NCBI GenBank assembly: GCA_019057635.1
Contig: DXJL01000080.1
Location: 1-11,445, forward strand
Reading direction: 5' to 3'
From: Candidatus Heimdallarchaeota archaeon
GTDB lineage: Archaea; Asgardarchaeota; Heimdallarchaeia; Hodarchaeales; Hodarchaeaceae
Length of the DNA stretch: 11,445 nt
Position 1 is the stretch's first letter. Every line of letters starts with the position of its first letter. The notes beneath the pieces are model-generated. The model worked only from the letters and a program-made list of their open reading frames with translations. It had not been told where the DNA came from and did not search any database. Positions 5,014 to 11,445 of this stretch are shown one piece after another. The position numbers and the translations under genes are program-made.

Positions 5014-6273
5014 TCATCGTTCGGGCAATTCTGGTAGGGGGCCAAAATCTTTAATCATTTTCAAAATTTCGGTGTCGGTGAGGACTTTATTTTGACTTTT
5101 TGCATGGTCAAGGATGATTCTCACTAGATCAAGATTAAACGAAAATTGATGGTACACCAACCACCAAATCACGTTGCTCCTTCCACTATTAGGCCCAATT
5201 TCTATTCTCTATTCCCTACCTATCCATTCAGCAGGTACTGATGAATATACCCGATCCTCCAACCATGTGTCGCCAAGTCTCTTCGCCTTGACCAATGCTG
5301 ATGCGTGAATGCCAGTCTGGGTTCGGAAAGCATCTTTTCCAATAACTGGTAAAGAGGGGGGAATTGGTACATTCGTTACTTCCGACACTGTTTTCGAATA
5401 TTTGGGTAGTGCATATAATTTGTTATCAATCAATCCAAGCATTTTGCAGTTGGTCAATAATAACTCCATTGATAGGTTACCAGACCGTTCACCGAGACCC
5501 AAGGCAGTTGCATGAATTCTTGATGCACCAGTCTCGATTGCTGTAAGTGTATTCTCCAAGGCCATCCCTCTATCACAATGTCCATGCCAATCTATACCTA
5601 CGGTTTCCCCTAGGTCGTGAATGACAGTCTTCGCGAACTCAACAATCTTTTTTGTCCCTTGGGGAGTTGCATGTCCCACAGTATCGCAAAGAGCAATTCG
5701 ATTTGCCCCCGCCTCCACTGCCACTGTTATGAGCTGCTGCAAAACCTCAGGTGCAGATCGAGTGGTATCTTCAGTCACGAATGTAATTTTCTCAATGGAC
5801 TGATTGACTGCACGAGTAATTGTCTTGGTGACATCATTAACTATTTTCTCAAGCTTCCAGCCTTCAACTAGCACTCTGATAGGACTAGAGGCAATAAATG
5901 TACATACTTCAATAGGTGTTTCAGTTTTACCAATAATATCAACTAGAATATCAATATCTTCTGGAATCATCCGTGAAGGGGAATTAGCTTCGATAGAAAG
6001 TTTTTCTTGAGTAATTATTTTTACCAGACCCACGACATCTTCATGAAAATTTGTTGAAGCAAAATCCATGCCTAGATTTACACTATTTATACCAAGTTGC
6101 TCCATTAAACGAATAATCTGCGCTTTTTCCTCCAGAGACGGATGTCTAACACTTGCAGATTGTAAACTATCTCGCAGGGTTTCATCTAGAAATTGTAAAT
6201 CAGTCGGCCCCTTTGGAGTTGACGAGGGATCAACATTCCAATCATATATTAATTGTGATAAATCTCGATACAT
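5014..6273 (-). pseudogene. LeuA/homocitrate-synthase-like DRE-TIM enzyme interrupted by an in-frame TAG at 5209..5211 (pseudogene, read-through or sequence error)
   Basis: DETLRDSLQS, LCDTVG, metal-binding WHGHCDRG, GLGERSGN and TGIHA. After WIGRE* the frame continues RIEIGPNSGRSNVIWWL...KVLTDTEILKMIKDFGPLPELPER to a TGA at 5016..5014, giving 419 codons in total. There is no LeuA regulatory domain. Confidence 0.8.
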
Positions 6274-6292
6274 ATTAATCCCTTCTCGTGAG

Positions 6293-9200
6293 CTATTTAC
6301 CTGATAACGTCTCCCAGTTTAATTTTTTAACTTCAGTAATCCAAGTTTTATTGACAAATAGGTGCATTTTATACCAAGTGGTTAAGCCAACAATTTCATC
6401 AACACAGGCTAAATCGGGGTTTGTCGTAAGCCATTTATAGGCTTCAGGATACATTTCAGCATACGGTGGTACACCTGTTCCTTTCTCTGAATCCCACCAG
6501 TGTCCCGTATGATTCACTATAACCCAGAAGTGTATATCGGGTAAATGGTTAGTGAAATAGTCATTCACATCAGAAGTTGAATTTGAAGAGAAAGGATAAT
6601 TACCTGTGTCCTTGACTTCGTATTCTAGATAATATCGAAGGGCAAATTGAGTACCTCCCTCATTTATTGCCCATGTACTATAATTATAATCCCCTCCATG
6701 ATTATTTATATAAATAGCCATCTCCTGGTATCGGAGATCGAATATTTGATTGTAATGGACATTAGTAGAGACATTTACTAACATCCCTGACATAGCGAGG
6801 GCAAGAATTATTGTAAGTTGAGGTTTAATCTTTGGTTTCAACCAGTACAACCCAACAATCAACAATATCAGTCCAACGAAAGTAGCTAGGGGAGCTCCAA
6901 ACTCCATCACTTCTCCGATCCATGAAAAATCTAATTTGAATAGCAGGTTTAGGAAATCATGGACTATATAATCGTATAATCGATACAACCCACCCCCTCC
7001 CCTAAACCATGCATCGATAAAGAATTTATATGCAAACCCAGCAGTAATGATTCCAGGAAACGTTTTCAGTACATAAAAGCAAAGAAAAATGAATGGGATT
7101 AGATAAATAGCGGCGACAAAAAGGTTTCTGAACAAAGAATTTAGATTTCCATTAGCCAAAAAAGCGGTGAGGGGAACGTAAACAAATGTAAATCCGATTT
7201 CTAAGAAAAAATATCCTCCAGCTAGCCCTTTTTCAACATTATCAACAGCTAGTAATCGCATTTTCTCATATGAATAGATAAACTCAAAACCTTTGGCTGC
7301 AATAGCAAGATAAGGGAGTACAAGGGGAATATAGTAATAATTCAACTGAAACATTGCGGGGAAGAAAACAAGAGGAATGACAAGTAACCAAGTGATCAGG
7401 GCAGAGCCCAACGCGGGATTACGACGTTCTGAAAAGAAAAATGCCCAGAGTCCAATTAGGAAGAATGGAAGCATGACAACCAATACGTAATCGTTTATTG
7501 CACCCCCTAAACTATCAGCTAAATTATACTTGGTTCCAGAAGTGTAACGCCACCCAATGTAATAATCAAAAAATAAAAAGGTATATGTAACGACATCAGG
7601 CTTATTAGGATCACCAGCAAGCTCTCCTGGGGTCCGTACCTCCCATGGAAAGTTCACAAGATTAGCATCGATATATTGTACCCAGGCAATAAAGGGATAG
7701 AAGCTGAGAATAATGACAATGAGGGTGATTCCAATAAACAGAATATGGGATGAGAAAATTGTTAGTTCTGCTTGAGAACGAATTCTTGCTTTAAGATTGA
7801 AAAATTTTATGAGCTTATTCTTAAGATGTGGATAGTAGGACAGTAAGGGAATTAGTAATAAGGAGATAGCAACACCCATTAACGTTATTGACAAAGCATT
7901 TCGATCAAAAACAAGTCCAAGCAGAAGTAATCCAACAAACCAAAACATCAACCAAATACCCATAATAATTAGGGGAAAACTGTCTATTAACTCGTAAATA
8001 AAACGAATGAAGGCTCTATCGGAGGAAATGAAATCTAATAACAACCCAAATGCAACTAATGCGAGAATAATTGTACCAATCGATCCTAATAATGCTCCGA
8101 TGAGTTCTAATAATGCTAGAACGAAGACCTCGTTGTTAAGTGCCTCTAGATTTTCTAGTGTTCCTTCTGATAGAAAGAATAAAATTCCTTTAATTATGGA
8201 CATATTATTCGAACTTAAAGCAGTTGCAAATTGTTTGAAAGCATCCTCTAATCGATTATAAAAAAGAGATACGATGATATTTCCCGCAAATGCTGCTAAT
8301 ACGCTCGTAATTCCAGTGAAAAATAACACAAGGTAGTTTCCTTCAACGAACTCATTTTTCCAAAACCGAAGAAACACAGTAAAACATGTAGAAGCGCTCA
8401 CGATAGCTATTATTAGACCAGCGACAAGAAGTTGATTGTAAATAACAGTAATAATAAATGAGATGACCAATGCAAGTAAGAATACAAAATACGGGAAAAG
8501 ATTGGCATAGGTTTGTTCTGAGGAAGAAGAATGTTCCTCATTGTCGGAGAAAGAAAGAGAAAATGATTCACGACTCTCATGTAGAGCAATTTTTAATTGA
8601 GAGAAATCAACATGCCGCTCTAAATATCTGAATACCAAATAGATGGCTATGGATGGTGCAATTAATACCCCTTGCCATGCTTTCGTCATGACATTTAGTA
8701 CATTAAGTATTCCTGTTAGTATGATTAATAAATAGCCTTTTTTCAGATTGTTATCAACAAATATCGCATCAATGGCGCGAATTCCTGTTAAAAAAACTAT
8801 AGATCCCATGAAAATAACAAAGGGGTCGATATATGCAGTTCGAGAATAGAAATTTAGAAATGAGGCTAGTGCAACCAGAAGCCCTGCTATAGCATGCGCG
8901 CTCTTAGTTTCTTTTTGATGACTGAACAAGAGGTATATCACTACCGCAAGACCAGCACCACCTATAGCATTCATGCCATTTGCCCCAAAAGTGCTTTTTC
9001 CAAAGATATTCATGAGGAGCGCGCCAAAAATGAAAGCAAAAGGAGGTTTATCAAATAATTGAAGGGTTGTATTATTCCCCCTATAATATAAAGGTAGGAA
9101 AGGATCTGATAACCCGTCAGCTATTCGTGAGGCAATGGAAACAAACCAACCTTCATCCCACATGTCAATAGACGAAGTATAAACTATCTTTAACCAAAAG

Positions 9201-9331
9201 GCTAAAAGACCTACAATCAGTAATAAACGATACCGTACAAAGTAGTCCCATAGTCTTACCGCTATCTTTTCTAACATTTGATTCTTCGTTGATTCTGGGA
9301 TTGGGTTTTGTTCCTCTTCTTGGGCAGTCAT
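6293..9331 (-). CDS. Large polytopic GT-C fold glycosyltransferase (ArnT/PMT-like, GT83/GT39 type)
   Basis: First TM helix followed by WDEGWF (DE motif), then FDKPPFAF, YSRTAYID and MTKAWQG. Many hydrophobic segments, YYYIPLVLP near the last core helices, and a soluble C-terminal domain with several N-x-S/T sequons. Confidence 0.8.
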   Translation of the reverse strand: MTAQEEEQNPIPESTKNQMLEKIAVRLWDYFVRYRLLLIVGLLAFWLKIVYTSSIDMWDEGWFVSIASRIADGLSDPFLPLYYRGNNTTLQLFDKPPFAFIFGALLMNIFGKSTFGANGMNAIGGAGLAVVIYLLFSHQKETKSAHAIAGLLVALASFLNFYSRTAYIDPFVIFMGSIVFLTGIRAIDAIFVDNNLKKGYLLIILTGILNVLNVMTKAWQGVLIAPSIAIYLVFRYLERHVDFSQLKIALHESRESFSLSFSDNEEHSSSSEQTYANLFPYFVFLLALVISFIITVIYNQLLVAGLIIAIVSASTCFTVFLRFWKNEFVEGNYLVLFFTGITSVLAAFAGNIIVSLFYNRLEDAFKQFATALSSNNMSIIKGILFFLSEGTLENLEALNNEVFVLALLELIGALLGSIGTIILALVAFGLLLDFISSDRAFIRFIYELIDSFPLIIMGIWLMFWFVGLLLLGLVFDRNALSITLMGVAISLLLIPLLSYYPHLKNKLIKFFNLKARIRSQAELTIFSSHILFIGITLIVIILSFYPFIAWVQYIDANLVNFPWEVRTPGELAGDPNKPDVVTYTFLFFDYYIGWRYTSGTKYNLADSLGGAINDYVLVVMLPFFLIGLWAFFFSERRNPALGSALITWLLVIPLVFFPAMFQLNYYYIPLVLPYLAIAAKGFEFIYSYEKMRLLAVDNVEKGLAGGYFFLEIGFTFVYVPLTAFLANGNLNSLFRNLFVAAIYLIPFIFLCFYVLKTFPGIITAGFAYKFFIDAWFRGGGGLYRLYDYIVHDFLNLLFKLDFSWIGEVMEFGAPLATFVGLILLIVGLYWLKPKIKPQLTIILALAMSGMLVNVSTNVHYNQIFDLRYQEMAIYINNHGGDYNYSTWAINEGGTQFALRYYLEYEVKDTGNYPFSSNSTSDVNDYFTNHLPDIHFWVIVNHTGHWWDSEKGTGVPPYAEMYPEAYKWLTTNPDLACVDEIVGLTTWYKMHLFVNKTWITEVKKLNWETLSGK

Positions 9332-9336
9332 GACTA

Positions 9337-9376
9337 TCCACCCATCTGTTCAGTGCATTCATTTAAGTTAGTTTTG
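9337..9376 (-). promoter_or_regulatory. Putative BRE/TATA and SD of the glycosyltransferase-leuA-like-ppiC unit
   Basis: Minus strand reads CAAAACTAACTTAAAT, followed by GGGTGG a few nt before the ATG at 9331. Confidence 0.4.
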
Positions 9377-9649
9377 CCCTCAATCTGTTATGGATTCCTA
9401 AGTAGTAAAGAGGCATAAAGAACTTTCTTAAGGGGTGATACTTTGTTATTCGGTTGTCCGTTGATGTGAGAGATAAAGTAAACGAGTCTACTTATTATGA
9501 ATACGTTCCAATTAGAACAAGTAGAAGAGATGATAGACCAAGCTAACTATAGCGATGCTCTGAACGAACTAGAAAGGTATGAAGAATCAAACCAGCTAAC
9601 CGATGAAGAACTGCTGACCAAAATTATATCCATTGAGGAAGAATCCATG

Positions 9650-9667
9650 ACTAAATTTGTCAGACAA
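9650..9667 (+). repeat. Left terminal inverted repeat
   Basis: ACTAAATTTGTCAGACAA, which contains the palindrome TTGTC-A-GACAA. Confidence 0.88.
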
Positions 9668-9913
9668 CGCAGTAAAACCGCGTTCTGGACAGGATGAGTC
9701 ACACATCCGCTATCCGGAAAAAACCAATTCAGTTGATGAATTCGTTTTCGAGGGACTACTTGTTACAATCGGGTTGGCATTCTCGCTTGATTCCTCGAAT
9801 TTCAAAAACCACTGGCCTTACCCCCTCGCCCTTGACGGGTAACTCGTCTAACGTAGTTACGAGGGAGGTATTCCAGTAACATTGCGATCTATTCTTTTCA
9901 TCACCTCCGATTT
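9666..9913 (-). ncRNA. Candidate structured non-coding RNA inside the element (strand uncertain)
   Basis: Five consecutive paired domains from 9666 to 9877, including a three-way junction at 9811..9877. About 48% GC by my count over 9661..9880. A BRE-TATA at 9950..9937 points into it. G.U/mismatch patterns do not fix the strand. Confidence 0.5.
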
Positions 9914-9936
9914 ATAAGGATTTGAGGGGGGGAGGC

Positions 9937-9950
9937 CTTTTAAGGGTTTC
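9937..9950 (-). promoter_or_regulatory. Archaeal BRE-TATA promoter inside the element
   Basis: Minus strand GAAACC-CTTAAAAG. The predicted start near 9913 is followed by GGAGGTGA (9908..9901). Confidence 0.55.
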
Positions 9951-9983
9951 AGAGAGAGAGTGAGGTGAAAATGAACATGTAAT

Positions 9984-10001
9984 TTGTCTGACAAATTTGA
10001 T
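9984..10001 (-). repeat. Right terminal inverted repeat
   Basis: TTGTCTGACAAATTTGAT, overlapping the perfect palindrome AATTTGTC-T-GACAAATT (9981..9997). Confidence 0.88.
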
Positions 10002-10222
10002 CATGCTAAAGCTATTTCGAACTTGGGAGAAAATTCTGGATCAGAAACTTTCTATAGGCGAAATAATAAAAATTTCGCGAGTAGAAGACTTAATCAATGG
10101 GGTTATTCGAAATAAAGCATATCAAAATGAAGAAGAGGTCATCGCTTATGCTGATAAAGCTCTTCAGATTGCGAAAGCATGGAAAGCTTAATAACCGCTA
10201 ATAGTTCGTAGGTGGTTTTAAA

Positions 10223-10633
10223 TTGTCGTTTTGGGTTTATATGTTACTCGTAGGAAAAAAATCCAGTGGGTATAATAGGAAAATCTACACGGGGTATACT
10301 CATCATCTGATGAATCGACTTACACAGCACATTGGCTTAAATAGTGTAAAAGGTGCACGTATAACTCGTAAACAACCAATTGAGTTAGTCTATTTAGAAA
10401 AATTTTCTTCTCGTAAACTAGCTCTGAAGCGTGAGTGGGATTTCAAAAATACGAGTCCGTTAAATCAAAAACCGAATAAATTAAGTCTAATTAAAGAGTT
10501 CCAAACAAAGAATGCTGATATTTTAAAGGATTTAAATGCGATATTTGAGGAGCACAATCAATTTCTTGAAACTTTGACAAATGAAATTAAAAAAATTGAA
10601 AAGGAATTTGAGAGACGATTTACACCAAAATAG
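10223..10633 (+). CDS. GIY-YIG nuclease superfamily protein (UPF0213-like) with C-terminal coiled-coil tail
   Basis: WVYML...IYTGYT...NRLTQH...GARITR..PIELVYLE...ALKRE motifs. TTG start preceded by AGGTGG. Confidence 0.85.
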   Translation: MSFWVYMLLVGKKSSGYNRKIYTGYTHHLMNRLTQHIGLNSVKGARITRKQPIELVYLEKFSSRKLALKREWDFKNTSPLNQKPNKLSLIKEFQTKNADILKDLNAIFEEHNQFLETLTNEIKKIEKEFERRFTPK

Positions 10634-10660
10634 TTATTTATTAGCACAATTCAATACTTA

Positions 10661-10686
10661 TTTTAAGACGGGTTATGATTATAACC
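10661..10686 (+). promoter_or_regulatory. Putative TATA box followed by a palindromic operator
   Basis: TTTTAAG (10661..10667), then GGTTAT-GATT-ATAACC (10671..10686), 22 nt upstream of the ATG at 10709. Confidence 0.45.
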
Positions 10687-10708
10687 TATTGGAAGTGAGT
10701 TCGAACCT

Positions 10709-11445
10709 ATGGTAGATCCTTTGTTAATTGGTGCCTTCTTTATTCTTCTGATATGTCTGATCATGATTATTCGTTTCACAGAGATCATTCCATACCTTTA
10801 TATCTATTTTACAGCCAGGAAAGATCTTCCAATAAAACTTCCAAGTGATTTTGGATTAGAAGCTACCTCCATCTCTTTTCCTGTTAAAGATAATTTACAG
10901 AAAGCCTGGTTTTTTCCCAGTAAGCAAGAAAATGGTGCTATCATTCTTATGATCCCAGATTGGACTAATGAACGTTCTTTAGAAAACAGTTTGAAAACAT
11001 CTGGAGTATTTCAAATCATGGGATTTAATGTCTTACTCCCTATTATTCATAACATTGATGAATCAACGCGCCTTCTTCTAAAGAAGAATTTTTCAACGCG
11101 TCATTATTCATTAATAATCCTAAAGGCGTATGAATACCTCATCTCACGTGATAATCTTAATAAACGAAAAATTGCAGTGTATAGCCAATCATTCAGCACA
11201 CTATTAGTGAGTACCTTAGTAAAAGATCAACCAATCCGAGCTGTCGTCCTCGAAAATGGACCTGTTCCGTTAAATACTCTAATTGCTCGTAAATTACCCT
11301 ATACGGGTTTTGGTGCCTCTCTCTTAAGATTCGTGACCCGTTTGATTGTGTGGCCTTTCACGTGGAAAACACGATGGGATCTAAAACATTCTCTCTCCAT
11401 GCTCCATTCCTGTCCTACGTTCCAAATATCAGTTTTTGATCATAA
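10709..11445 (+). CDS. Membrane-anchored alpha/beta-hydrolase-fold protein, 3'-partial, with degenerate catalytic motifs
   Basis: The open frame from ATG 10709 runs off the window, so it is absent from the track. Translation includes MVDPLLIGAFFILLICLIMII (TM), LPSDFGLEATSISF, KAWFFPS, IILMIPD, MGFNVLL, AYEYLISR, KIAVYSQSFS, IRAVVLENG and CPTFQI. Confidence 0.75.
   Translation, partial: MVDPLLIGAFFILLICLIMIIRFTEIIPYLYIYFTARKDLPIKLPSDFGLEATSISFPVKDNLQKAWFFPSKQENGAIILMIPDWTNERSLENSLKTSGVFQIMGFNVLLPIIHNIDESTRLLLKKNFSTRHYSLIILKAYEYLISRDNLNKRKIAVYSQSFSTLLVSTLVKDQPIRAVVLENGPVPLNTLIARKLPYTGFGASLLRFVTRLIVWPFTWKTRWDLKHSLSMLHSCPTFQISVFDH

What the first reader, a model, noticed from the sequence alone, without database searches (positions are those of the whole stretch)
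9666..9877. Element cargo is an almost fully base-paired ~210-nt multi-domain structure: candidate mobile-element ncRNA
Seen (plus-strand coordinates): (i) AACGCAGT 9666-73 with ACCGCGTT 9677-84. (ii) TTCTGGA 9683-89 with TCCGGAA 9713-19, enclosing GGATG 9692-96 with CATCC 9704-08. (iii) AATTCA 9726-31 with TGAATT 9737-42. (iv) TTCGAGG 9747-53 with CCTCGAA 9793-99, enclosing a 13-nt bulge and AATCGGG with CTTGATT. (v) ACTGG 9811-15 with CCAGT 9873-77 and TACCCCCTCG 9819-28 with CGAGGGAGGTA 9860-70, closing a linker-free three-way junction with hairpins CCC-TTGAC-GGG and TAACT-CGT-CTA-ACG-T-AGTTA. GC is about 48%, higher than the flanks, and the overlapping ORFs look spurious. Inference: the element lost its enzyme but kept a structured RNA, as expected if the RNA (or folded ssDNA) is needed for mobility or targeting, by analogy with bridge/seek RNAs and omega RNAs. 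I found no convincing guide match to the target or donor junction by eye and no recognisable known RNA family. This is the best candidate for a new system in the window.
Basis: partly seen in the sequence, partly recalled or inferred. Interest (0 to 1): 0.85.

Follow-up and report, generated by a model that had tools for sequence, protein, structure and literature searches.

The report
Enzyme-less TnpB transposon keeping its RNA
This is a 360-base miniature copy of an archaeal TnpB transposon that has lost the nuclease gene but kept the folded guide-RNA scaffold, plus one extra conserved hairpin module whose job is unknown; the kind of element is already known, the extra module is the unexplained part.

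Summary
The helices are real and sit at the stated coordinates. They lie inside a 360-nt repeat (window 9646-10005) with about 20 copies in this Asgard (Hodarchaeales-like) archaeal genome. The repeat is an internally deleted derivative (PATE/MITE) of a 1.42-kb IS200/IS605-family element that encodes only TnpB, on the window's minus strand.

Three pieces of the parent survive:
- the last ~120 nt (end of tnpB plus right end, where the omega guide-RNA scaffold lies);
- the left end with the putative tnpB TATA box.

Covariation across 30-56 distinct copies supports hairpins i and iii, the outer stem of iv and the junction stem. Folding z-scores are modest. The loop of hairpin ii is complementary to the element's last bases, the pseudoknot described for archaeal omega RNAs.

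The two retained coding pieces are the only stretches of intact tnpB genes whose synonymous sites are frozen. The internal module is therefore a selected nucleic-acid element of unknown role.

Verdict: not a new system, but a TnpB-less omega-RNA carrier with one unexplained extra module. No RNA data, no cognate TnpA and no firm strand call are available.

The parts
9646..10005 (-). Whole non-autonomous element (PATE/MITE): 356 nt plus one extra CATG. The sense direction of the lost tnpB is the minus strand, so the right end (RE) is at 9646 and the left end (LE) at 10005.
   Evidence: Copy boundaries from blastn against the own genome and from the alignment with flanks. The empty site in congener G002 holds a single CATG. 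Arms 9646-9667 and 9984-10005 are 91% complementary.
9646..9765 (-). Segment homologous to the last ~120 nt of the 1.42-kb parent (tnpB C-terminal codons plus RE). This is the expected omega-RNA scaffold core.
   Evidence: nhmmer: MITE positions 1-120 match long-element positions 1-120, E 1e-28 to 6e-36, in 6 of 6 long copies. In long copies the tnpB stop codon lies 14 nt from the element end.
9646..9652 (-). Terminal CATG and the AGTCAT (minus-strand) motif. This is the transposon-encoded end motif and the proposed 3' partner of the pseudoknot.
   Evidence: CATG at this end in 32 of 35 copies. Complementary to the hairpin-ii loop 9697-9702 in 98.3% of cells over 30 copies; the columns are invariant, so there is no covariation.
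9657..9667 (-). RE subterminal palindrome TTGTC-N-GACAA.
   Evidence: Read directly from the sequence. Conserved in the alignments.
9666..9684 (-). The sequence varies between subfamilies while the pairing is kept.
   Evidence: 6 of 6 pairs show changes on both sides, 86-96% of cells paired, 52 copies.
9683..9719 (-). Hairpin ii. The inner stem GGATG/CATCC (9692-9696 with 9704-9708) is invariant. The outer stem is weak. The loop 9697-9703 is the 5' partner of the pseudoknot. In the parent this stretch encodes PDSGCVTHPVQ.
   Evidence: Inner stem 97.6% paired; outer stem 71%. Third-codon-position identity here is 0.81-1.00 among 8 intact tnpB genes.
9726..9742 (-). Entirely different sequences in the subfamilies, same position.
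   Evidence: 10 of 10 pairs show changes on both sides, 81.8% of cells paired.
9747..9799 (-). Domain iv. The outer stem 9747-9753 with 9793-9799 is supported; the inner stems are not conserved. The distal strand (about 9766-9808) has no counterpart in the parent.
   Evidence: Outer stem: 6 of 6 pairs with changes on both sides, 80.9% paired. Inner stems: 48-53% paired. No nhmmer match for MITE positions 121-163.
9809..9884 (-). It derives from parent positions 601-677, the tnpB codons for LGLNNLVTTSDGLLVKGGVGKT just after the RuvC-I motif GIDLG.
   Evidence: nhmmer E 1e-9 to 2e-11 in 6 of 6 long copies. Covariation in the stems. Third-codon-position identity 0.91-0.92 in intact genes against about 0.3-0.7 elsewhere. 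The core pattern was found in 7 of 400 genomes sampled from the phylum, all in one genus, with 25 hits in the own genome.
9898..9907 (-). MITE-specific conserved block; the minus strand reads GAGGTGATGA (Shine-Dalgarno-like plus ATG). Role unknown.
   Evidence: Conserved in the A and B subfamilies. Not seen at the matching place in the 5 long copies printed.
9935..9944 (-). A/T-rich octamer after a (CT)n tract (minus strand CCTTAAAAGG). It is the counterpart of the CTTATAAG box about 25-35 nt upstream of the tnpB start in long copies, so it is a putative archaeal TATA box that would drive a minus-strand RNA starting near 9918.
   Evidence: Present in 6 of 6 MITEs and 5 of 5 long copies printed. 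nhmmer: MITE positions 290-361 match long-element positions 1305-1424. The promoter role is an inference.
9981..9997 (-). LE subterminal palindrome AATTTGTC-N-GACAAATT.
   Evidence: Sequence and alignment.
10002..10005 (-). CATG next to the LE. It is either the target or transposon-adjacent motif (TAM) or one half of a 4-bp duplication.
   Evidence: CATG at this end in 27 of 35 copies. A single CATG at the empty site in G002.
9630..9645 (-). Predicted guide of the omega-type RNA: the flank immediately 3' of the RE on the minus strand. Not conserved between copies.
   Evidence: Flanks are unrelated among 16 aligned copies. The empty site in G002 reads CATG followed by this sequence on the minus strand, with the first 14 nt identical. 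The guide role is inferred from how TnpB elements work.

Best explanation
The structure is the RNA cargo of a non-autonomous derivative (PATE/MITE) of an IS200/IS605-family, IS1341-type element that encodes only TnpB, in an Asgard archaeon. Shown: the element is the parent minus most of tnpB, and keeps the right-end ~120 nt, a 76-nt internal tnpB piece, and the left end with an A/T box. These pieces are conserved and their helices covary among diverged subfamilies. Three intact TnpB genes of the same family sit elsewhere in the genome. Inferred mechanism: the retained tnpB promoter drives a minus-strand RNA of about 270-290 nt (roughly 9918 down to just past 9646). Its 3' half is an omega-RNA scaffold made of hairpins iii, ii and i, the right-end hairpin, and a pseudoknot between the hairpin-ii loop and the terminal motif. 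Its 3' tail, copied from the flank 9645 to about 9630, is the guide. TnpB made by full-length copies would load this RNA in trans. After the element is excised, TnpB would cut the restored empty site (CATG plus the guide match), so that recombination with a sister copy puts the element back. The small element would thus borrow both the transposase and the retention nuclease. The junction module is a second cis element under selection in parent and derivative alike. My best guess is that it is an extra 5' RNA domain that helps TnpB loading, RNA stability or folding.
For: 1. Parentage. Long copies of 1412-1427 nt share both ends and encode a 423-429-aa ORF on the minus strand. That ORF matches NCBIfam NF040570 guided_TnpB (223.5 bits, cut-off 100), Pfam OrfB_IS605 and Cas12f1-like_TNB, and solved TnpB/Cas12f chains including 8exa and 8h1j. 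nhmmer maps three MITE segments onto the parent.
2. The right-end half sits exactly where omega RNAs lie: it overlaps the last tnpB codons and ends at the element boundary.
3. Covariation.
4. The hairpin-ii loop is complementary to the terminal AGTCAT in 98% of cells. [quoted passage not shown]
5. Among 8 intact tnpB genes (70-95% aa identity), third-codon-position identity peaks only at the omega core (0.81-1.00) and at the internal module (0.91-0.92) (7 copies). The MITE keeps just these two pieces.
6. The MITE versions of the module carry fixed changes that perfect the hairpin once coding is lost.
7. The putative TATA box is retained.
8. The insertion is real: congener G002 has the empty site.
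9. [quoted passage not shown]
Against: No transcript evidence exists: no RNA run holds the locus. There is no Rfam match at gathering scores, and only two irrelevant weak hits at E up to 10. The strand is not settled. G.U against A.C counts are mixed: 135 against 180 overall; hairpin i 20:5 and hairpin iii 25:15 favour the minus strand, while the outer stem of ii, 4:55, favours the plus strand. z-scores favour the minus strand in only 20 of 30 copies. The pseudoknot columns are invariant, so they are untested by covariation. In this subfamily the minus strand carries a U6 run (9719-9724) and a U5 run (9803-9807) inside the scaffold. From general knowledge, archaeal RNA polymerase tends to stop at such runs, so the RNA could be cut short. 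No Y1 TnpA (PF01797) was found in the own genome at 91.6% completeness. It was found in only 2 of 21 congeners, and the one locus examined (G018) is broken and sits next to a different TnpB; neither locus carries these ends. No described omega RNA that I found has a module taken from 500 nt upstream.
Confidence: 0.68

Rival explanations
1. The conserved hairpins act as single-stranded DNA rather than RNA. They would be recognition structures for the (missing) transposase during peel-and-paste transposition, with the internal module serving as a third, end-like hairpin.
For: Both ends carry GTC-N-GAC palindromes. The apex of the internal module carries the same motif (CGTCAGACG in long copies). 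It is complementary to the right-end hairpin strand in 96% of cells. Wobble statistics do not single out an RNA strand. Internal deletions at end-like repeats are documented for haloarchaeal PATEs (PMC3119063, passages read).
Against: From general knowledge of IS608-type elements, only the subterminal hairpins and short guide and cleavage motifs are needed for Y1 transposition. That does not explain conservation of about 75 further nt of the omega-homologous block, or covarying hairpins iii and iv 80-150 nt inside. No TnpA is present to exert the selection.
Confidence: 0.14
2. The MITE RNA regulates TnpB rather than guiding it. It could be a decoy that soaks up TnpB, or (if made from the plus strand) an antisense RNA against the two matching stretches of tnpB mRNA.
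For: The two retained pieces are 77-83% identical to tnpB. MITEs outnumber intact tnpB genes by about 20 to 3. The strand is unresolved.
Against: The retained A/T box points to the minus (sense) strand. Antisense action does not need covarying hairpins whose sequences differ from those of the parent. The frozen synonymous sites in the parent itself argue for a function in cis.
Confidence: 0.1
3. It is a neutrally decaying tnpB pseudogene fragment, and the structure is a by-product.
For: Both modules come from coding sequence. Thermodynamic z-scores of most copies are unremarkable, mean about -1.5.
Against: Subfamilies about 68% identical overall keep near-invariant blocks and compensated stems. 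The hairpin of the module became more perfect after loss of coding. A single-copy variant (C83) with a different junction and a parent-like core, probably a separate deletion event, kept the same module.
Confidence: 0.05
4. It is a new kind of RNA-guided mobility system (bridge or seek-RNA-like), with internal loops that read target and donor.
For: Multi-domain fold, no Rfam family.
Against: The parent encodes TnpB, not an IS110-type recombinase. The element interior matches its own flanks no better than the flanks of other copies (6.64 against 6.94 +/- 0.18, 25 copies).
Confidence: 0.02

Closest known systems
PATEs (palindrome-associated transposable elements) of haloarchaea, derived from IS605/IS1341-type elements (Dyall-Smith et al. 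2011, PMC3119063; passages read)
   Same: Archaeal, too short to encode a protein, near-terminal palindromes, derived from tnpB-bearing elements by internal deletion. [quoted passage not shown] They appear mobile in genomes without an intact IS200-type transposase.
   Different: Here the ends also form a 22-nt inverted repeat and both are bounded by CATG. A second piece from the middle of tnpB is kept and conserved. The host is an Asgard archaeon.
Omega RNA / reRNA / sotRNA of TnpB (IS1341-type) elements (PMC12558985, sections 3.3.3 and 4.2 read; PMC4615843 and PMC8612924 seen as search listings only)
   Same: Lies over the 3' end of tnpB and ends at the right-end boundary. Has a right-end hairpin and loop-to-end-motif complementarity. 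The guide would be the adjacent flank.
   Different: No transcript or TnpB binding is shown here. No Rfam model matches. The RNA would carry an extra 5' domain that in the parent lies about 500 nt upstream, inside the RuvC-I coding region.
PATE-like elements with omega RNAs in Geobacillus stearothermophilus (Meers et al. 2023 preprint, PMC10055086; passages read)
   Same: Minimal elements with LE and RE and no gene, said often to encode omega RNAs that need TnpB in trans. TnpB is proposed to restore excised copies by cutting the empty site.
   Different: That host is bacterial and has an identified TnpA. I saw no mention of retained internal tnpB sequence. Their Extended Data and supplements were not visible to me.
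Bridge RNA of IS110 (PMC11208160, search listing only)
   Same: A structured non-coding RNA carried by a mobile element.
   Different: Different enzyme family. The guide loops are internal to the RNA, which was tested here and not found.

Membership tests
IS200/IS605-family non-autonomous derivative (PATE/MITE) | Ends homologous to those of a gene-bearing parent element in the same genome | tested here: met
   nhmmer matches to both ends in 6 of 6 long copies; blastn.
IS200/IS605-family non-autonomous derivative (PATE/MITE) | Subterminal palindromic hairpins at both ends | tested here: met
   9657-9667 and 9981-9997, conserved in 16 aligned copies.
IS200/IS605-family non-autonomous derivative (PATE/MITE) | No target duplication; insertion next to a short fixed target motif | tested here: inconclusive
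   The empty site has one CATG and the filled site has CATG at both ends. This fits either a target motif plus a matching element end, or a 4-bp duplication of a palindromic target.
IS200/IS605-family non-autonomous derivative (PATE/MITE) | Too short to encode a protein | tested here: met
   360 nt; the longest ORFs are 61, 61, 51 and 45 aa. Indels between copies are visible in the alignments. ORF conservation was not tested formally.
IS200/IS605-family non-autonomous derivative (PATE/MITE) | A Y1 (HUH) TnpA available in trans | tested here: not met
   0 PF01797 matches in the own genome at 91.6% completeness. Matches in 2 of 21 congeners; the G018 locus examined is broken and next to a different TnpB, and neither locus holds these ends. 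An incomplete assembly cannot prove absence.
TnpB omega RNA | Encoded over the 3' end of tnpB and ending at the right-end boundary | tested here: met
   In long copies the stop codon is 14 nt from the end. Window 9646-9765 is the homologous stretch.
TnpB omega RNA | Conserved secondary structure with compensatory changes | tested here: met
   (scores and controls are given in the observation check).
TnpB omega RNA | Right-end hairpin and a pseudoknot between a hairpin loop and the terminal motif | tested here: inconclusive
   Complementary in 98.3% of cells against 22-51% when slid, but all columns are invariant. The feature is taken from PMC12558985, section 3.3.3.
TnpB omega RNA | Variable guide directly 3' of the scaffold that matches the empty site next to the target motif | tested here: met
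   Flanks are unrelated among copies. The G002 empty site reads CATG plus the flank on the minus strand. This holds by construction for any IS605-type insertion.
TnpB omega RNA | Transcribed and bound by TnpB | not testable with these tools
   No RNA run is listed for the locus.
TnpB omega RNA | Match to a curated RNA family | tested here: not met
   0 Rfam hits at gathering scores. At E up to 10 only snoR14 (16.1 bits, cut-off 40) and sR35 (11.5 bits, cut-off 60), both at other positions.
Bridge / seek RNA (IS110 / IS1111) | Internal loops complementary to target and donor; IS110-type recombinase in the parent | tested here: not met
   (no excess match to own flanks). The parent encodes TnpB.

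The most novel reading that the evidence does not exclude
The three-way-junction module is a previously undescribed second functional RNA domain of this Asgard TnpB system. It is written into the RuvC-I coding region of tnpB, where it freezes synonymous sites. The miniature elements have spliced it next to the omega scaffold, making a compact guide RNA that competes for TnpB better than the parent's own transcript. Its apex may pair with the right-end hairpin strand just upstream of the guide.
Probability: 0.3. Interest if true: 0.65.

Novelty: new variant of a known kind. Interest (0 to 1): 0.45.

Why it matters
TnpB is the ancestor of Cas12 and a compact genome editor, so how its guide RNA is built and loaded is of practical interest. 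This family offers a natural minimisation experiment: deletion derivatives show which nucleotides the system cannot lose. The result is the omega core plus one unexpected internal module whose synonymous sites are as frozen as those of the omega core itself. If that module is an RNA domain, it is a new part of a guide-RNA scaffold and a lead for engineering. If it acts as DNA, it bears on how TnpB-only elements spread in genomes where no TnpA is found. That puzzle was already noted for haloarchaea (PMC3119063, passages read). The element also documents recent transposon activity in Hodarchaeales-like Asgard archaea. As a new system, however, the finding does not stand.

Tried and rejected
- Rfam found nothing useful.
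- RNA evidence: no RNA holder is listed for window 6000-11445.
- Contigs of four DNA runs laid on 9000-10700 gave no contig that joins across the element. This gives no evidence on presence/absence polymorphism within the species.
- Strand call by wobble pairs: mixed, and dominated by a few inherited positions.
- Strand call by z-scores: only a weak lean to the minus strand, 20 of 30 copies.
- Internal guide: none.
- Alternative long helix 9814-9827 with 9924-9937. It is strong in the window copy (-29.7 kcal/mol). Over 25 copies the mean is -15.3, against -12.7 for shuffled partners, so it is not a family feature.
- Pairing of the module apex with the right-end hairpin. It was proposed by RNAalifold on 11 long copies and is complementary in 96% of cells. 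It shows no covariation. Two copies with a changed right end turn the U.G into U-A, while others break pairs.
- Looking for the same frozen synonymous sites in distant TnpB clusters (14 Firmicutes-like, 12 and 5 cyanobacterial loci). These show only the 3'-terminal peak and a mild rise at INQWYNK that low codon degeneracy explains.
- The core as a promoter: by eye I saw no A/T-rich box in or next to it on either strand.
- C/D-box or K-turn reading of GTGATGA ... CTGA: no terminal stem, dropped.
- Literature searches for an internal constrained module in tnpB, or for Asgard PATEs, found none in the listings or the passages I read. Supplements were closed and may hold relevant element tables.

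Full report
**Observation.** The plus-strand minimum-free-energy fold of 9666-9877 reproduces them. It has 72 pairs, so 68% of bases are paired, at -65.8 kcal/mol with z = -2.76; 1 of 200 dinucleotide shuffles folds as well. The minus strand folds slightly better in energy (-67.5 kcal/mol) with z = -2.32, 5 of 200. GC is 47.6% against 35-37% in the flanks. Rfam gives nothing at gathering scores, and only two irrelevant sub-threshold snoRNA hits elsewhere in 9600-10050.

**What the region belongs to.** Positions 9646-10005 are a repeat. The own genome (3.19 Mb, 214 contigs, 91.6% complete) gives 49 matches and 54 blastn pieces, and copy boundaries always fall at 9646 and 10005. Aligned with flanks, 16 copies share CATG at the left end; the 15 that reach the right end carry CATG there (12) or a one- or two-letter variant (3). 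The flanks are unrelated. Over 35 complete copies, CATG is at the left end in 32 and at the right end in 27. The two ends form a 22-nt inverted repeat, 91% complementary, and each holds a GTC-N-GAC palindrome. A congener (G002) has the uninterrupted site with a single CATG. The element is therefore a genuine insertion of 356 nt plus CATG.

**The parent.** About ten copies in the genome are long: six are complete at 1336-1424 nt and four are cut by contig ends or truncated. They share both ends with the short element and encode one ORF on the window's minus strand. It is intact in 3 of the 6 complete copies, at 423-429 aa. It is a TnpB by several measures: NCBIfam guided_TnpB at 223.5 bits against a cut-off of 100; Pfam OrfB_IS605 and Cas12f1-like_TNB; and matches to solved TnpB and Cas12f chains, including the Deinococcus enzyme. 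Its stop codon lies in the right-end palindrome, 14 nt from the element end. The last codons therefore overlap what in the window is hairpins i and ii.

A profile of 25 full-length short copies maps onto 6 long copies in three pieces:
- short 1-120 = long 1-120;
- short 164-239 = long 601-677;
- short 290-361 = long 1305-1424.

Short positions 121-163 and 240-289 have no counterpart. The genome holds about 20 such short copies, plus a single-copy variant (C83) with a different junction and a parent-like core, probably a separate deletion event, that also keeps the internal piece. A 230-nt form in another genome lacks the internal piece.

**Host.** The genome encodes TBP, a family that in the control set rings only in archaea. 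The closest TnpB relatives in named genomes (69-95% identity) are MAGs labelled Candidatus Heimdallarchaeota B3_Heim and Candidatus Hodarchaeota. The next relatives are at or below 35%. The element family was found in 8 of 41 related genomes including the own one, all in one genus. The core motif was found in 7 of 400 genomes sampled from the phylum, in the same genus, with 0 hits for the reversed control. DNA runs that hold the locus are marine-sediment and cold-seep metagenomes. None is on record as RNA.

**Is the structure conserved?** The copies fall into subfamilies that are about 68% identical overall, which gives real power.
The shuffle mean is 0.137 (0 of 500 reach it), and slid partners give 0.073-0.123. 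75% of cells are paired against 33-45% slid.
- A covariance model of the right-end half aligned 52 copies, short and long: 0.251 against 0.092 and 0.023-0.055.
- A model of the junction aligned 71 matches, 56 of them distinct, including the internal region of long copies: 0.274 against 0.181 and 0.051-0.133.

Model-fitted alignments lean towards the model, so the MAFFT result is the more conservative one.

Helix by helix:
- Hairpins i and iii and the outer stem of iv change on both sides at every pair.
- The junction's stems do so at 14 of 15 pairs.
- The inner stem of ii and the junction hairpin are invariant.
- The outer stem of ii, the inner stems of iv and the 3-bp arm are weak.

Thermodynamics alone is unimpressive across copies, with mean z of -1.5. 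The window copy is the best folder of the set.

**Why I read the right-end half as an omega-RNA scaffold.** It is the homologue of the stretch over the tnpB 3' end that runs to the right-end boundary. RNAalifold also proposed a pairing of the hairpin-ii loop with the last bases of the element. This pairing is complementary in 98% of cells, against 22-51% when slid, though it is invariant. [quoted passage not shown] The guide would be the flank 9645-9630 on the minus strand, and the empty site in G002 reads CATG followed by that sequence. An A/T-rich box after a (CT)n tract is kept in short copies. In long copies it sits about 25-35 nt before the tnpB start, so a minus-strand transcript starting near 9918 is plausible. 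This step is an inference. Meers et al. (preprint PMC10055086, passages) already state that PATEs often encode omega RNAs that need TnpB in trans. Dyall-Smith et al. (PMC3119063, passages) described archaeal PATEs derived from IS1341-type elements by internal deletion.

**The unexpected part.** It is the tnpB segment that encodes LGLNNLVTTSDGLLVKGGVGKT, directly after the RuvC-I motif.

Among 7 long copies, nucleotide identity is 0.62-0.85 along the gene but 0.90-0.93 at this segment. In codon alignments of 7 and then 8 genes (70-95% amino-acid identity), third-position identity is about 0.3-0.7 everywhere except in two places. These are codons 217-228 (0.91-0.92) and the last ~16 codons, the omega core (0.81-1.00). 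Many of the frozen codons are four- or six-fold degenerate (Leu, Val, Thr, Ser, Gly).

Distant TnpB clusters show only the terminal peak. The short elements keep exactly these two frozen segments. In them the module carries fixed changes that turn an interrupted hairpin into a perfect 6 + 3 bp one, while its outer stem covaries. The module is therefore a selected nucleic-acid structure in parent and derivative alike.

Its role is open. Its apex is complementary, with two G.U pairs on the minus strand, to the right-end hairpin strand in 96% of cells, but without covariation. It also resembles the end palindromes, which keeps a DNA-level role alive.

**What speaks against, or is missing.**
- There is no RNA evidence.
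- The strand is not fixed by wobble counts.
- U-runs lie inside the putative scaffold of this subfamily.
- No cognate Y1 transposase was found in the assembly, and 19 of 21 congeners have none either. The element's mobilisation is therefore unexplained.
- Whether the CATG is a target motif or a 4-bp duplication cannot be told.

**Verdict.** The element is a TnpB-less, omega-RNA-bearing PATE/MITE in an Asgard archaeon. That is a known kind of thing, with one conserved extra module that I could not find described (searches; supplements closed).

Noticed in passing
window 9497-9613 and L065 (G002:C11) 1-1686: The interrupted 'host gene' is itself a remnant. In G002 the matching C-terminus belongs to an ORF of at least 561 aa that looks repeat-rich by eye (not scanned against Pfam). 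In the window, homology to it starts only at about 9611-9614. Upstream lies unrelated sequence and a 1012-aa ORF on the other strand. The MITE therefore probably sits in an already truncated gene.
   Followed up: partly
own genome and 21 congeners: No Y1 TnpA in the own genome. Only 2 of 21 congeners have a match; the G018 locus examined is broken and next to a different TnpB, and neither locus holds these ends. Yet the family has dozens of copies and an empty site exists in G002. This is the same TnpB-only mobility puzzle reported for Haloquadratum (PMC3119063).
   Followed up: partly
window 9814-9827 with 9924-9937: A 14-nt, 86% complementary alternative partner for the pyrimidine strand of the junction. 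It is very stable in the window copy (-29.7 kcal/mol) but not clearly better than composition controls across 25 copies.
   Followed up: yes
window 9842-9850 with 9659-9667 (minus strand): The apex of the internal module is complementary over 9 nt (two G.U pairs) to the right-end hairpin strand, in short and long copies. The columns are invariant, so the pairing is untested.
   Followed up: partly
window 9898-9907: A block conserved only in the short elements reads GAGGTGATGA on the minus strand. That is a strong Shine-Dalgarno-like sequence with an overlapping ATG, but no conserved ORF follows. It forms a short inverted repeat with TCACCTC at 9961-9967, across the putative TATA box.
   Followed up: no
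G000:C83:29510-29900 (L022) and L035 1500-1730: Other deletion derivatives exist. One single-copy form joins right-end position ~117 directly to the internal module. A 230-nt form in G004 keeps only ~75 nt of the right end, the A/T box and the left end.
   Followed up: partly
window 9684-9740 and 9798-9854: In contigs of four sediment and seep metagenomes, summed contig depth jumps from about 4-8 to about 90-550 over just the two conserved blocks. Many contigs in those samples carry these blocks.
   Followed up: no
window 6293-9331 (minus) and 10223-10633 (plus): A 1012-aa ORF with no Pfam match, and a 136-aa GIY-YIG-domain ORF that is conserved next to the insertion site in G002.
   Followed up: no
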